64,000 nucleotides of DNA from the human T2T-CHM13v2.0 reference genome, Homo sapiens (GCF_009914755.1 NC_060936.1), one strand, 5' to 3'; positions 4,502 to 18,600 are shown, numbered from the stretch's first letter. Program-made: numbers and translations. Notes: a model not told the origin generated them from the sequence alone.

Positions 4502-7500
4502 GGGAGGAGCCAAGATGGCCGAATAGGAACAGCTCCGGTCTACAGCTCCCAGCATGAGCGACGCAGAAGATGGGTGATTTCTGCATTTCCATCTGAGGTA
4601 CCAGGTTCATCTCACTAGGGAGTGCCAGACAGTGGGCGCAGGTCAGTGGGTGCGTGCACCATGCGCGAGCTGAAGCAGGGCCAGGCATTGCCTCACTCCG
4701 GAAGTGCAAGGGGTCAGGGAGTTCCCTTTCCTAGTCAAAGAAAGGGGTGACAGATGGCACCTGGAAAATTGGGTCACTCCCACCCGAATACTGCGCTTTT
4801 CTGACGGGCTTAAAAAACAGCGCACCACGAGATTATATCCGGCACCTGGCTCTGAGGGTCCTACGCCCACGGAGTCTCGTTGATTGCTAGCACAGCAGTC
4901 TGAGATCAAACTGCAAGATGGCAGTGAGGCTGGGGGAGGGGCACCCACCATTGCCCAGGCGAGCTTAGGTAAACAAAGCAGCCAGGAAGCTCGAACTGGG
5001 TGGAGCCCACCACAGCTCAAGGAGGCCTGCCTGCCTCTGTAGGCTCCACCTCTGGGGGCAGGGCACAGACAAACAAAAAGACAGCAGTAACCTCTGCAGA
5101 CTTAAATGTCCCTGTCTGACAGCTTTGAAGAGAGCAGTGGTTCTCCCAGCACGCAGCCGGAGATCTGAAAACAGGCAGACTGCCTCCTCAAGTGGGTCCC
5201 TGACCCCTGACCCCCGAGCAGCCTAACAGTGAGGCACCCCCCAGCAGGGGCACACTGACACCTCACACAGCAGGGTACTCCAACAGACCTGCAGCTGAAG
5301 GTCCTGTCTGTTAGAAGGAAAACTAACAAACAGAAAGGACATCCACACCAAAAACCCATCTGTACATCACCATCATCAAAGATCAAAAGTAGATAAAACC
5401 ACAAAGATAGGGAAAAAACAGAACAGAAAAACTGGAAACTCTAAAAAGCAGAGTGCCTCTCCTCCTCCAAAGGAACGCAGTTCCTCACCAGCAATGGAAC
5501 AAAGCTGGATGGAGAATGACTTTGACGAGCTGAGAGAAGAAGGCTTCAGACGATCAAATTACTCTGAGCTATGGGAGGACATTCAAACCAAAGGCAAAGA
5601 AGTTGAAAACTTTGAAAAAAATTTAGAAGAATGTATAACTAGAATAACCAATACAGAGAAGTTCTTAAAGGAGCTGATGGAGCTGAAAACCAAGGCTCGA
5701 GAAATACATGAAGAATGCAGAAGCCTCAGGAGCCAATGCGATCAACTGGAAGAAAGGGTATCAGCAATGGAAGATGAAATGAATGAAATGAAGCAAGAAG
5801 GGAAGTTTAGAGAAAAAAGAATAAAAAGAAAGGAGCAAAGCCTCCAAGAAATATGGGACTATGTGAAAAGACCAAATCTATGTCTGACTGGTGTACCTGA
5901 AAGTGATGGGGAGAAAGGAACCAAGTTGAAAACACTCTGCAGGATATTATCCAGGAGAACTTCCCCAATCTAGCAAGGCAGGCCAATGTTCAGATTCAGG
6001 AAATACAGAGAATGCCACCAAGATACTCCTCCAGAAGAGCAACTCCAAGACATAACTGTCAGATTCACCAAAGTTGAAATGAAGGAAAAAATGTTAAGGG
6101 CAGACAGAGAGAAAGGTCAGGTTACCCTCAAAGGGAAACCCATCAGACTAACAGCAGATCTCTTGGCAGAAACTCTACAAGCCAGAGAGAGTGGGGGCCA
6201 ATATTCAACATTCTTAAAGAAAAGAATTTTCAACCCAGAATTTCATATCCAGCTAAACTAAGCTTCATAAGTGAAGGAGAAATAAAATACTTTACAGACA
6301 AGCAAATGCTGAGAGATTTTGTCACCACCAGGCCTGCCCTAAAAGAGCTCCTGAAGGAAGTGCTAAACATGGAAAGGAACAACCGGTACCAGCTGCTGCA
6401 AAATCATGCCAAAATGTAAAGACCATCAAGACTAGGAAGAAACTGCATCAACTAATGAGCAAAATAACCAGCTAACATCATAATGACAGGATCAAATTCA
6501 CACATAACAATGTTAACTTTAAGTGTAAATGGACTAAATGTTCCAATTAAAAGACACAGACTGGCAAATTGGATAAAGAGTTAAGACCCATCAGTGTGCT
6601 CTATTCAGGAAACCCATCTCACGTGCAGAGACACATAGAGGCTCAAAATAAAGGGATGGAGGAAGATCTACAAGCAAATGGAAAACAAAAAAAGGCAGGG
6701 GTTGCAATCCTAGTCTCTGATAAAACAGACTTTCAACCAACAAAGATCAAAAGAGACAAAGAAGGCTATTACATAATGGTAAACGGATCAATTCAACAAG
6801 AAGAGCTAACTATCCTAAATATATATGCACCCAATACAGGAGCACCAAGATTCATAAAGCAAGTCCTGAGTGACCTACAAAGAGACTTAGACTCCAACAC
6901 ATTAATAATGGGAGACTTTAACACCCCACAGTCAACATTAGACAGATCAACGAGACAGAAAGTCAACAAGGATACCCAGGAATTGAACTCAGCTCTGCAC
7001 CAAGCAGACATAATAGACATCTACAGAACTCTCCACCCCAAATCAACAGAATATACATTTTATTCAGCACCACACCACACCTATTCCAAAATTGACCACA
7101 TACTTGGAAGTAAAGCTCTCCTCAGCAAATGTAAAAGAACACAAATTATTACAAACTATCTCTCAGACCACAGTGCAATCAAACTAGAACTCAGGATTAA
7201 GAATCTTACTCAAAACTGCTCAACTACATGGAGACTGAACAACCTGCTCCTGAATGACTACTGGGCACATAATGCAATGAAGGCAGAAATAAAGATGTTC
7301 TTTGAAACCAACGAGAACAAAGACACAACATACCAGAATCTCTGGGATGCATTCAAAGCAGTGTGTAGAGGGAAATTTATAGCACCACTAAATGCCCACA
7401 AGAGAAAGCAGGAAAGATCCAAAATTGACACACTAACATCACAACTAAAAGAACTAGAAAAGCAAGAGCAAACACATTCAAAAGCTAGCAGAAGGCAAGA

Positions 7501-15600: not shown

Positions 15601-18600
15601 GAATCTCTGGGACACATTCAAAGCAGTGTGCAGAGGGAAATGTACAGCATCAAATGCCCACAAGAGAAAGCAGGAAAGATCTAAAATTCACACCCTAATA
15701 TCACAATTAAAAGAACTAGAGAAGCAAGAGCAAACACATTCAAAAGCTAGCAGAAGGCAAGAAATAACTAAGATCAGAGCAGAACTGAAGGAAATAGAGA
15801 CACAAAAAACCCTTCAAAAAATTAATGAATCCAGGAGCTGGTTTTTTGAAAAGATCAACAGAATCGATAGACCACTAGCAAGACTAATAAAGAAGAAAAG
15901 AGAGAAGAATCAAATAGATGCAATAAAAAATGATAAAGGGGATATCACCACAGATCCCACAGAAATACAAACTACCATCAGAGAATACTATAAACACCTC
16001 TATGCAAATAAACTAGAAAATCTAGAAGAAATGGATAAATTCCTCGACACATACACCCTCCCAAGACTAAAGCAGAAAGAAGTTGAATCTCTGAATAGAC
16101 CAATGACAGGATCTGAAATTATGGCAATAATCAATAGCTTGCCAACCAAAAAAAGTCCAGGACCAGATGGATTCACAGCCAAATTCTACCAGAGGTACAA
16201 GAAGGAGCTGGTACCATTCCTTCTGAAACTATTCCAATCAATAGAAAAAGAGGGAATCCTCCCTAACTCATTTTATGAGGCCAGCATCATCCTGATACCA
16301 AAGCCTGGCAGAGACACAAGCAAAAAAGAGAATTTTAGACCAATATCCTTGATGAACATTGATGCAAAAATCCTCAATAAAATACTGGCACACCAAATCC
16401 AGCAGCACATCAAAAAGCTTATCCACCATGATCAAGTAGTCTTCATCCCTGGGATGGAAGACTGGTTCAATATACGCAAATCAATAAATGTAATCCAGCA
16501 TATAAACAGAACCAAAGACAAAAACCACGATTATCTCAATAGATGCAGAAAAGGCCTTTGACAAAATTCAACAAGCCTTCATGCTAAAAACTCTCAATAA
16601 ATTAGGTATTGATGGGATGTATCTCAAAATAATAAGAGCTATCTATGACAAGCCCACAGCCAATATCATACTGAATGGGCAAAAACTGGAAGCAGTCCCT
16701 TTGAAAACTGGCACAAGACAGGGATGCCCTCTCTCACCACTCCTATTCAACATAGTGTTGGAAGTTCTGGCCAGGGCAATTAGGCAGGAGAAGGAAATAA
16801 ACGGTATTCAATTAGGAAAAGAGGAAGTCAAATTGTCCCTGTTTGCAGATGACATGATTGTATATCTAGAAAACCCCATTGTCTCAGCCCAAAGTCTCCT
16901 TAAGCTGATAAGCAACTTCAGCAAAGTCTCAGGATACAAAATCAATGTATAAAAGTCACAAGCATTCTTATACACCAATAACAGACAAACAGAGAGCCAA
17001 ATCATGAGTGAACTCCCATTCACAATTGCTTCAAAGAGAATAAAATACCTAGGAATCCAACTTAGAAGGGATGTGAAGGACCTCTTCAAGAAGAACTACA
17101 AACCACTGCTCAATGAAATAAAAGAGGATACAAACAAATGGAAGAACATTCCATGCTCATGGATAGGAAGAATCAATATTGTGAAAATGGCCATACTGCC
17201 CAAGGTAATTTAAAGATTCAATGCCATCCCCATCAAGCTACCAATGACCTTCTTCACAGAATTGGAAAAAACTACTTTAAAGTTCATATGGAACCAAAAA
17301 AGAGCCCGCATCGCCAAGTACATCCTAAGCCAAAAGAACAAAGCCGGAGGCATCACGGTACCTGACTTCAAACTATACTAAAAGGCAACAGTAACCAAAA
17401 CAGCATGGTACTGGTACCAAAACAGAGATATAGATCAATGGAACCAAACAGAGCCCTCAGAAATAATGCCACATGTCTACGACCATCTGATCTTTGACAA
17501 ACCTGAGAAAACCAAGCAATGGGGAAAGGATTCCCTATTTAATAAATGGTGCTGGGAAAACTGGCTAGCCATATGGAGAAAGCTGAAACTGGATCCCTTC
17601 CTTACACCTTATACAAAAATTAATTCAAGATGGATTAAAGACTTACATGTTAGACCTAAAGCCATAAAAACCCTAGAGGAAAACCTAGGCAATACCATTC
17701 AGGACATAGGCATGGGCAAGGACTTCATGTCTAAAACACCAAAAGCAATGGCAACAAAAGCCAAAATTGACAAATGGGATCTAATTAAACTAAAGAGCTT
17801 CTGCACAGCAAAAGAAACTACCATCAAAGGAACAGGCAACCTACAGAATGGGAGAAAATTTTCACAACCTACTCATCTGACAAAGGGCTAATAACCAGAA
17901 TCGATAATGAACTCAAACAAATTTACAAGAAAAAAACAACCCCATCAAAAAGTGGGTGAAGGATGTGAACAGACACTTCTCAAAAGAAAACATTTATGCA
18001 GCCAAAAGACACATGAAAAAATGCTCATCATCACTGGCCATCAGAGAAATGCAAATCAAAACCACAATGAGATATCATCTCACACCAGTTAGAATGGCGA
18101 TCATTAAAAAGTCAGGAAACAGCAGGTGCTGGAGAGGATGTGGAGAAACAGGAACACTTTTACACTGTTGGTGGGACTGTAAACTAGTTCAACCATTGTG
18201 GAAGTCAGTGTGGCGATTCCTCAGGGATCTAGAACTAGAAATACCATTTGAGCCAGCCATCCCATTACTGGGTATATACCCAAAAATTATAAATCATGCT
18301 GCTATAAAGACACATGCACACGTATGTTTATTGTGGCACTATTCACATTAGCAAAGACTTGGAACCAACCCAAATGTCCAACAATGATAGACTGGATTAA
18401 GAAAATGTGGCACATATACACCATGGAATACTGTGCAGCCATAAAAAATGATGAGTTCATGTCCTTTGTAGGGACATGGTTGAAGCTGGAAACCATCATT
18501 CTCAGCAAACTATCGCAAGGACAAAAAAACCAAACACCACATGTTCTCACTCATAGTTGGGAATTGAACAATGAGAATACAAGGACACAGGAAGGGGAAC

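What the first reader, a model, noticed from the sequence alone, without database searches (positions are those of the whole stretch)
6570..17585. Two neighbouring L1s from different subfamilies share the same inactivating mutations: likely gene conversion
Seen: L1 A (4502-10580) and L1 B (12652-18779) differ in UTR diagnostics (128-bp 5' UTR segment, 3' UTR bases), so they look like independent insertions. Their ORF2s nevertheless share changes relative to the L1 consensus as I recall it: the same nonsense codon 34 (CAA to TAA; 6582 and 14845), the same 1-bp deletion in atctac(c)aagc (about 6671 and 14934), attatTacaaac (about 7145/15410), caccacAgatccc (about 7684/15946), EIMAII (about 7855/16117), DTSKK (about 8050/16313), LAHQIQ (about 8122/16385), EAVP (about 8428/16689), atgacCttcttc (about 8983/17244) and AIWRK (about 9306/17567). 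Other positions between them still differ. Established: L1 retrotransposes with cis preference, so an ORF2-dead template rarely produces a full-length daughter. Inference: repeated patchwork non-allelic conversion between direct repeats about 8.26 kb apart, which also makes this a substrate for an 8.3-kb NAHR deletion or duplication.
Basis: partly seen in the sequence, partly recalled or inferred. Interest (0 to 1): 0.82.

Follow-up and report, generated by a model that had tools for sequence, protein, structure and literature searches.

The report
Neighbouring L1 copies exchanged short patches
Two separately inserted L1 retrotransposons 8.3 kb apart on human chromosome 12 share a stop codon, a frameshift and seven other rare changes, best explained by old, short gene-conversion patches between neighbouring repeats, a known process.

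Summary
L1 A (4502-10580) and L1 B (12652-18779) are about 93% identical. They belong to different L1PA types and sit in unrelated flanks.

- **Shared sites:** All nine lie in ORF2, A 6582-8988. They include a TAA at codon 34 and a 1-bp deletion in codon 63. The tenth site (9315) is only moderately rare, 4 of 38.
- **Genome-wide counts:** the shared states are rare, for example 48 of 5813, 82 of 5498 and 9 of 6733. Only A and B carry all seven searched variants. One other element, 85 kb away, carries two.
- **Control:** among 315 young-by-old control pairs, the maximum is 4 shared exclusive variants. A-B has 9.
- **Rejected explanations:** chance, a dispersed sublineage and tandem duplication.
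- **Best explanation:** old non-allelic gene conversion in at least six short patches, separated by retained type-specific differences. No identical run exceeds 133 bp.

The direction of transfer is unresolved. The pair is a weak NAHR substrate today. This is one more example of a known process, and of modest interest.

The parts
4502..10580 (+). L1 A: full-length, young-type L1PA copy. It lacks the 5'UTR segment of about 120 bp. ORF2 starts at 6483.
   Evidence: A clusters with its 20 nearest genomic relatives in all three segment trees. It is inserted inside an older L1.
12652..18779 (+). L1 B: full-length, old-type L1PA copy that retains the 5'UTR segment. It is mosaic: old-type at both ends, with younger-type states in the middle of ORF2.
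6582..6670 (+). Patch 1 in A (B 14845-14933): the shared TAA at ORF2 codon 34 and the shared 1-bp deletion in codon 63. Retained diagnostic differences at A 6533 and 6868 bound it.
   Evidence: Genome-wide, the TAA string occurs 48 of 5813 times. The deletion string occurs in 4 places including A and B.
14845..14933 (+). Patch 1 in B, the counterpart of A 6582-6670.
7150..7150 (+). Shared rare T (B 15415). Retained differences at 7117 and 7158 flank it, so the patch is at most 40 bp.
   Evidence: 0 of 40 panel copies carry it. No genome-wide count was made for this site.
7690..7690 (+). Shared rare A (B 15952). The patch is at most 95 bp (7634-7728). A third L1 85 kb upstream also carries this state.
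   Evidence: 82 of 5498 genome-wide.
7859..7859 (+). Shared rare A (B 16121). The patch is at most 94 bp (7796-7889).
   Evidence: 9 exact matches genome-wide, A and B included.
8057..8128 (+). Two shared rare states, at 8057 and 8128 (B 16320 and 16391), lying between retained differences at 8028 and 8248. The third L1 also carries the 8128 state.
   Evidence: (15 exact matches for the 8128 string). No genome-wide count was made for 8057.
8434..8434 (+). Shared rare G (B 16695), lying between retained differences at 8248 and 8717.
   Evidence: 9 of 6733 genome-wide.
8988..8988 (+). Shared rare C (B 17249), lying between differences at 8952 and 9096.
   Evidence: 41 exact matches genome-wide.
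16111..17863 (+). The block of B (A equivalents 7849-9603) where B carries younger-type states at 10 diagnostic sites, although it is old-type at both ends.
3863..4497 (+). Left half of the older L1 that A interrupted. It aligns to A's own positions 2996-3652 at 67% identity.
10643..12311 (+). Right half of the same older L1. It aligns to A's own positions 3648-5340 at 71% identity, so A is a simple insertion.

Best explanation
A and B are two independent L1 insertions, a younger-type copy and an older-type copy lying 8.26 kb apart in direct orientation. After both were in place, they exchanged short stretches of ORF2 by non-allelic (interlocus) gene conversion. A break in one copy was repaired using the neighbouring copy as template, without crossover. 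This copied a few tens to a few hundred bases, including mutations that had arisen privately in the donor.

The result is at least six short patches between A 6582 and 8988. Each carries one or two otherwise rare variants, among them a stop codon and a frameshift. Sites where each copy kept its own type-specific base separate the patches. The exchanges are old, because later private mutations surround every patch.

- **Shown:** the shared rare variants, their rarity, the independent insertion of the two copies, and the mosaic layout.
- **Inferred:** the repair mechanism, whether there were several events or one patchily repaired heteroduplex, and the direction of transfer.
- **Direction:** two of the nine sites hint at B to A.
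For: 1. Nine columns have A = B with 0 of 40 related copies sharing the state.
2. **Controls.** A-B has 9 exclusive two-copy variants. The maximum among the other 314 young-by-old pairs is 4, with a mean near 0.37. By my arithmetic, the Poisson tail from those counts is about 2e-10. Among all 861 pairs, only two pairs that I take to be duplicated loci exceed it.
3. **Genome-wide rarity.**
   - TAA: 48 of 5813.
   - 7690 state: 82 of 5498.
   - 8434 state: 9 of 6733.
   - Deletion string: 4 places.
   - 7859 string: 9.
   - 8128 string: 15.
   - 8988 string: 41.
4. Cross-matching the seven lists shows that only A and B carry all seven. One other element carries two, and no other carries two or more.
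5. **Independent insertions.** A's two flanks are contiguous halves of one older L1. B's flanks are an A-rich tail and another L1 fragment. The only flank-to-flank similarity is a 230-bp match at 74% between generic old L1 pieces.
6. **Different types.** There are 126 diagnostic sites. A carries the young state at 114 and B the old state at 106. Their 5'UTR structures differ, and they fall in separate clades in the 5' and 3' segment trees.
7. All nine shared variants fall in 2407 of 6079 bp. The chance of that is 2.4e-4.
8. Retained diagnostic differences interrupt the shared variants.
Against: - **Not nearest relatives.** A and B are not each other's closest relatives in any segment I searched genome-wide. 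In four searches, each scoring 40 of 2998-4360 candidates, the partner copy was never among the 40. This is expected for old events but gives no positive support.
- **No long identical tract.** The longest run is 133 bp. By my estimate that is not unusual at about 4% divergence.
- **Very short patches.** Two patches are bounded to at most 40 bp and at most 95 bp and hold one variant each. Any single one of them could be a parallel mutation.
- **Weak loss-of-private-mutations signal.** The expected loss of old private mutations in a converted tract is seen only weakly. In 8029-8716 there are 15 A-private and 12 B-private sites, against 70 and 134 elsewhere (Fisher p = 0.036). A similar ratio also occurs at the 3' end, where nothing is shared.
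- **B's block is not evidence for A as donor.** Its 13-site haplotype is identical to that of a third L1 85 kb away. It is one step from a dispersed copy (L050), whereas A differs from it at 4 of the 13 sites.
- **No outgroup or population data** were available.
Confidence: 0.85

Rival explanations
1. Both copies descend from one dispersed L1 sublineage, perhaps ORF2-dead and mobilised in trans, that already carried these variants.
For: Each variant taken alone occurs in a few other copies: 4 to 82 places.
Against: - Apart from one neighbour with two, no other element in the genome carries two or more of the seven searched variants.
- None of the 40 copies most similar to A or B in the segment holding three of the variants has any of them.
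- A and B belong to different types at 126 diagnostic sites.
Confidence: 0.03
2. A and B are the two halves of an old tandem duplication of a single L1, so the shared variants predate the duplication.
For: The copies are in direct orientation at a constant 8.26-kb offset.
Against: - The flanks are not duplicated, and A splits an older L1 cleanly.
- The 5'UTR structure differs in the way that separates L1 types.
- Their distances to nearest relatives are unequal: 97% for A against 94% for B.
- The diagnostic states differ along the whole length.
- The shared variants are confined to 40% of the element.
Confidence: 0.02
3. Independent parallel mutations at mutable sites.
For: Control pairs do share 1-4 exclusive variants by chance, so one of the nine could be coincidence.
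Against: - Nine against a mean of about 0.37.
- The set includes transversions and an identical 1-bp deletion found in only 4 places genome-wide.
Confidence: 0.01
4. Assembly or polishing cross-talk between the two copies in this assembly.
For: None from my calls. The tools here cannot exclude it.
Against: - The copies differ by about 7%, including at sites immediately beside the shared ones.
- The shared states are single sites among many private differences, not blocks of identity.
Confidence: 0.02
5. A and B did not exchange directly. Each was converted by a third donor: the L1 85 kb upstream, or a copy that has since been lost.
For: - The upstream L1 (L041) carries two of the nine variants, 7690 and 8128.
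- It has exactly B's 13-site haplotype at A 7795-8520. None of 50 other copies has that haplotype.
Against: - That L1 lacks the other seven variants.
- Its rare-variant sharing with A (4) and B (6) is no higher than its sharing with unrelated copies (5 and 4).
- No existing element carries the full set.
Confidence: 0.08

Closest known systems
Non-allelic gene conversion between neighbouring Alu elements
   Same: Independent retrotransposon insertions lying within 10 kb of each other come to share sequence after insertion. A review states that conversion rates are elevated for copies less than 10 kb apart, citing Aleshin and Zhi 2010 (PMC6598467, passages read).
   Different: Here the partners are 6-kb L1s of different types at about 93% identity. 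The exchange covers only scattered short patches of ORF2, not a large part of the element.
L1 gene conversion reported in the L1 literature
   Same: The process proposed for L1 copies is the same. [quoted passage not shown] 1991) was seen only in a reference list (PMC5640379). A 2026 preprint lists gene conversion among the processes that blur old L1 histories (PMC13192797, passage read).
   Different: I read none of the primary L1 papers, so I cannot say whether neighbour pairs with shared inactivating mutations have been described. My phrase searches for L1 gene conversion found one paper. The other searches listed nothing on this locus by title or abstract.
L1-L1 non-allelic homologous recombination causing deletions or duplications
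   Same: The substrate geometry is the same: direct L1 repeats a few kb apart. That such deletions occur in humans is recalled, not read here.
   Different: No crossover product is present. Both copies and the spacer are intact. Present identity (longest run 133 bp) makes crossover unlikely now.
The 129-bp 5'UTR deletion that marks L1PA3 and younger lineages
   Same: A and 18 of its 20 nearest relatives lack a 5'UTR segment that B and the older-type copies keep. A 129-bp deletion is described as fixed in L1PA3 and later lineages in the great-ape ancestor (PMC7110667, passages read).
   Different: I did not align to named subfamily references. Equating A's missing segment with that deletion, and calling A 'L1PA3 or younger', is an inference.

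Membership tests
Non-allelic (interlocus) gene conversion between repeats | The two sequences are paralogous copies of independent origin, not products of a duplication. | tested here: met
   A interrupts an older L1 whose halves flank it. The flanks of A and B are unrelated. The two copies are of different types.
Non-allelic (interlocus) gene conversion between repeats | The pair shares derived variants that are absent or rare in the rest of the repeat family, in excess of chance. | tested here: met
   Nine sites are shared by 0 of 40 panel copies. The combination is unique to the pair.
Non-allelic (interlocus) gene conversion between repeats | Mosaic structure: the exchanged segments are bounded by segments that keep each copy's own lineage states. 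| tested here: met
   Diagnostic differences are retained between the patches. All shared variants lie within A 6582-8988. B shifts position in the tree of the ORF2 5' segment.
Non-allelic (interlocus) gene conversion between repeats | Identifiable donor and recipient, that is, unidirectional transfer. | tested here: inconclusive
   Two shared states also occur in a third, older-type neighbour, and the 8128 state sits mostly on old-type copies. This hints at B to A. B's younger-type block hints at the opposite direction but fits other donors better.
Non-allelic (interlocus) gene conversion between repeats | Orthologous loci in related species show the state before and after the event. | not testable with these tools
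Tandem or segmental duplication of one L1 | The duplicated unit includes flanking sequence, and divergence is roughly uniform along it. | tested here: not met
   No flank duplication. Divergence ranges from 3.7% to 12.7% by segment.
L1PA3-or-younger lineage (for copy A) | Lacks the 129-bp 5'UTR segment. | tested here: inconclusive
   A lacks about 120 bp that B has, as do 18 of A's 20 nearest relatives. I did not show that this is the published deletion. No subfamily reference or RepeatMasker call was used.

The most novel reading that the evidence does not exclude
The transfer ran from the old, decayed copy B into the younger copy A. On this reading, a nonsense codon and a frameshift that arose in a dead L1 were copied into a more recently inserted neighbour. 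The same stretch of ORF2 was also exchanged with a third L1 85 kb away. Local gene conversion among clustered L1s would then be a passive route by which old dead copies disable younger neighbours, and it would blur subfamily assignment of full-length L1s. Other close pairs in the rare-variant lists hint that neighbour sharing may be common genome-wide.
Probability: 0.3. Interest if true: 0.5.

Novelty: new member of a known kind. Interest (0 to 1): 0.35.

Why it matters
This is a clean, well-controlled example showing that neighbouring L1 copies of different ages can exchange short stretches long after insertion. Three things follow.

- L1 ages and subfamily calls based on sequence can be locally misleading. 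Here B looks about 3% from its nearest relatives in one ORF2 segment and about 6% in another.
- Shared inactivating mutations do not always mean shared descent.
- The approach used here could be scaled into a genome-wide survey of L1 neighbour conversion. It compares rare-variant sharing between neighbours against a control set of pairs.

The finding does not change what is known about the mechanism.

Tried and rejected
- **First pair control.** The control on the raw alignment was contaminated by truncated copies whose non-L1 flanks had been aligned to L1 columns. I replaced it with a masked version and a cross-type version.
- **Unbiased sample of copies.** All panel statistics therefore rest on nearest-relative panels plus whole-genome pattern counts.
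- **Nearest-relative test.** I asked whether A is B's nearest relative in the best candidate tract. It is not, in either direction.
- **Long identical fragments.** I looked for runs of identity as a sign of recent conversion and found none. The longest is 133 bp.
- **B's block as evidence for A to B transfer.** I withdrew this. The third L1 has the identical haplotype, and dispersed pre-young copies are nearly identical to it.
- **A's old-type states as evidence for B to A transfer.** I withdrew this too. Six of the nine are shared with the basal relatives L004/L005.
- **The third L1 as a conversion partner.** By rare-variant sharing it is not distinguishable from noise. The haplotype identity is striking.
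- **The 8128 state as a marker of a lineage with B's haplotype.** It is not. None of the 12 other carriers has that haplotype, and most are plain old-type. That script hit its time limit after printing. re-read the same alignment.
- **A second neighbour pair on contig 4 that shares the TAA.** It could be only partly examined.
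Full report
**Anatomy**

The window holds two full-length L1 elements in direct orientation, A at 4502-10580 and B at 12652-18779.
- They align at 92.8% identity over 5285 bases, and at 85% over the first 780 bases.
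- Divergence varies by segment:
  - 5'UTR: 12.7%
  - ORF1 region: 9.8%
  - first kilobase of ORF2: 7.4%
  - next kilobase: 4.2%
  - next kilobase after that: 3.7%
  - 3' end: 8.5%
- A lacks a 5'UTR segment of about 120 bp that B has. Eighteen of A's 20 nearest relatives lack it too, and the older-type copies keep it.
- A 129-bp 5'UTR deletion is described as fixed in L1PA3 and later lineages in the great-ape ancestor (PMC7110667, passages read). I infer, but did not test, that A belongs to that group and B to an older one. I had no RepeatMasker names, so below I use two working labels defined by my panels, 'young type' and 'old type'.

**Independent insertions**

- The 635 bases before A (3863-4497) align to L1 positions 2996-3652 of A's own sequence. 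The 1669 bases after A (10643-12311) continue at positions 3648-5340. A therefore landed inside an older L1 and split it.
- B lies between an A-rich tail and another L1 fragment.
- The flanks of A and B share only a 230-bp, 74% match between old L1 pieces.
- This excludes a tandem duplication.

**The shared variants**

I fetched the 20 genomic copies most similar to A 6570-7170 and the 20 most similar to B 14833-15435 and aligned them with A and B.

Exactly nine columns have A = B with none of the 40 sharing the state:
- A 6582, a TAA at ORF2 codon 34
- A 6670, a 1-bp deletion in codon 63
- A 7150, 7690, 7859, 8057, 8128, 8434 and 8988

The tenth, the TGG codon at 9315, is carried by 4 of 38 panel copies.

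Beyond codons 34 and 63, each ORF2 has its own stops and frameshifts: seven further lesions in A and ten in B.

**Is this more than chance?**

- After masking non-homologous stretches, I counted variants carried by exactly two sequences for all 861 pairs. A-B has 9. Only two pairs exceed it, L004/L005 with 34 and L022/L026 with 18. I take these to be duplicated loci. Of the 861 pairs, 583 have none and 207 have one.
- Restricting to young-by-old pairs gives 315 pairs: 222 with 0, 73 with 1, 16 with 2, 2 with 3, 1 with 4, and A-B with 9.
- Whole-genome pattern counts give the frequency of the shared states:

| Site | Count of shared state |
|---|---|
| 6582 (TAA) | 48 of 5813 |
| 6670 (deletion string) | 4 places |
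| 7690 | 82 of 5498 |
| 7859 | 9 |
| 8128 | 15 |
| 8434 | 9 of 6733 |
| 8988 | 41 |

- Sites 7150 and 8057 were not counted genome-wide.
- Cross-matching the seven lists by position shows that only A and B carry all seven. One further element carries two. No other element carries more than one.
- A dispersed lineage with this combination therefore does not exist in this genome.

**Mosaic layout**

- I defined 126 diagnostic sites where the 20 young-type copies and 14 old-type copies differ consistently. A has the young state at 114 of them. B has the old state at 106.
- In trees of the 5' third and the 3' quarter, A sits with the young clade and B with the old clade. In the ORF2 5' segment, B moves towards the younger copies.
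- All nine shared variants lie in 2407 of the 6079 bases (probability 2.4e-4).
- Between them, A and B keep their own diagnostic states, which cuts the shared variants into at least six patches. The maximum extents are:
  - 6534-6867, holding two variants
  - 7118-7157
  - 7634-7728
  - 7796-7889
  - 8029-8716, holding three variants with one retained difference at 8248 inside it
  - 8953-9095
- Private mutations of both copies lie inside and beside every patch. The longest perfectly identical run anywhere is 133 bp. The exchanges are therefore old.

**Results that do not help the conversion reading**

- In four genome searches, each scoring 40 of about 3000-4400 candidates, the partner copy was never among the best 40.
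- The expected erasure of B's older private mutations is only weakly visible. In 8029-8716 there are 15 A-private and 12 B-private sites, against 70 and 134 elsewhere (p = 0.036). A similar ratio also appears at the 3' end, where nothing is shared.
- Any one of the single-variant patches could be a parallel mutation. The control mean is about 0.4 per pair.

**Direction**

I first read B's young-type states at A 7849-7870, 8086-8226, 8520-8687 and 9174 as a sign of transfer from A to B. That does not hold up.
- A third full-length L1, 85 kb upstream on the minus strand (L041), has exactly B's 13-site haplotype across A 7795-8520.
- That haplotype is absent from the other 50 copies covering the region. 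It is one step from a dispersed copy (L050). A differs from it at four sites.
- The third L1 also carries two of the nine shared variants, 7690 and 8128, and lacks the other seven.
- The 12 other carriers of the 8128 state are mostly plain old-type copies without that haplotype (the script timed out after printing).
- This hints that at least those two states were in old-type copies first and reached A from B.
- However, the third L1's rare-variant sharing with B (6) and A (4) is no greater than its sharing with unrelated copies (5 and 4).
- A's own old-type states are mostly explained by its basal position among the young copies.

I leave the direction open, with a slight lean to B to A for part of the set.

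**Mechanism**

The best explanation is homologous repair of breaks in one copy using the neighbour 8.3 kb away as template, without crossover. This happened either several times with short tracts, or once with a long heteroduplex repaired patchily. Those steps are inferred from the pattern, not shown.

The process itself is established for neighbouring Alu elements, with higher rates below 10 kb (PMC6598467, passages read). It is mentioned for L1 (PMC13192797, passage; a 1991 title seen only in a reference list).

My literature searches found nothing on this locus. The primary L1 papers are outside the library or were not read.

**NAHR**

With 93% identity and no identical run above 133 bp, the pair is a poor crossover substrate now. 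It would have been a better one soon after the exchanges.

**Verdict**

This is a new example of a known process and is of modest interest. The more interesting open reading is that an old dead L1 copied its inactivating mutations into a younger neighbour, and that such local exchange is common among clustered L1s.

Noticed in passing
Outside the window: G000 contig 12, 55471184-55477262, minus strand (locus L041), about 85 kb upstream of A: This third full-length L1 carries two of the nine A/B variants (7690 and 8128). Across A 7795-8520 it has a 13-site diagnostic haplotype identical to B's, which none of 50 other copies has. By rare-variant sharing alone it is not distinguishable from noise.
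   Followed up: partly
G000 contig 4, 157473009 and 157482222, both minus strand (loci L052, L053): This is another pair of L1 copies, 9.2 kb apart, that both carry the rare TAA at ORF2 codon 34. They are 96.3% identical over 731 bp. The second copy then breaks into an inverted L1 piece, so the two differ in structure.
   Followed up: partly
Genome-wide lists of the rare states: Carriers of a given rare state often lie close together. Examples are contig 1 at 66.065 and 66.079 Mb, contig 3 at 75.888 and 75.901 Mb, contig 12 at 9.500 and 9.516 Mb, and triples on contig 18 near 49.3 Mb and contig 23 near 102.3 Mb. I did not check whether these are segmental duplications or conversions.
   Followed up: no
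Loci L004/L005 (contig 9, 80.08 and 40.68 Mb) and L022/L026 (contig 23, 118.72 and 118.76 Mb, opposite strands): These pairs of L1 copies share 34 and 18 exclusive variants. I take them to be copies within duplicated segments. They served as positive controls for the pair statistic.
   Followed up: no
window 3863-4497 and 10643-12311: These are the two halves of an older L1 (67-71% identical to A) that A's insertion split. The join falls at the same L1 position on both sides.
   Followed up: yes
window 18788-20121: An L1 3' fragment, 81.7% identical to A 8866-10215, directly abuts B's very short A-tail. No target-site duplication could be identified for B.
   Followed up: partly
window 9246 (B 17507): At this one diagnostic site the states are swapped. 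A has the old-type base (1 of 20 young copies has it) and B has the young-type base (2 of 18 older-panel copies have it). This is unexplained.
   Followed up: no
window 4819-5379: The RefSeq 'enhancer' feature in the hub's annotation lies wholly inside the 5'UTR of L1 A.
   Followed up: no
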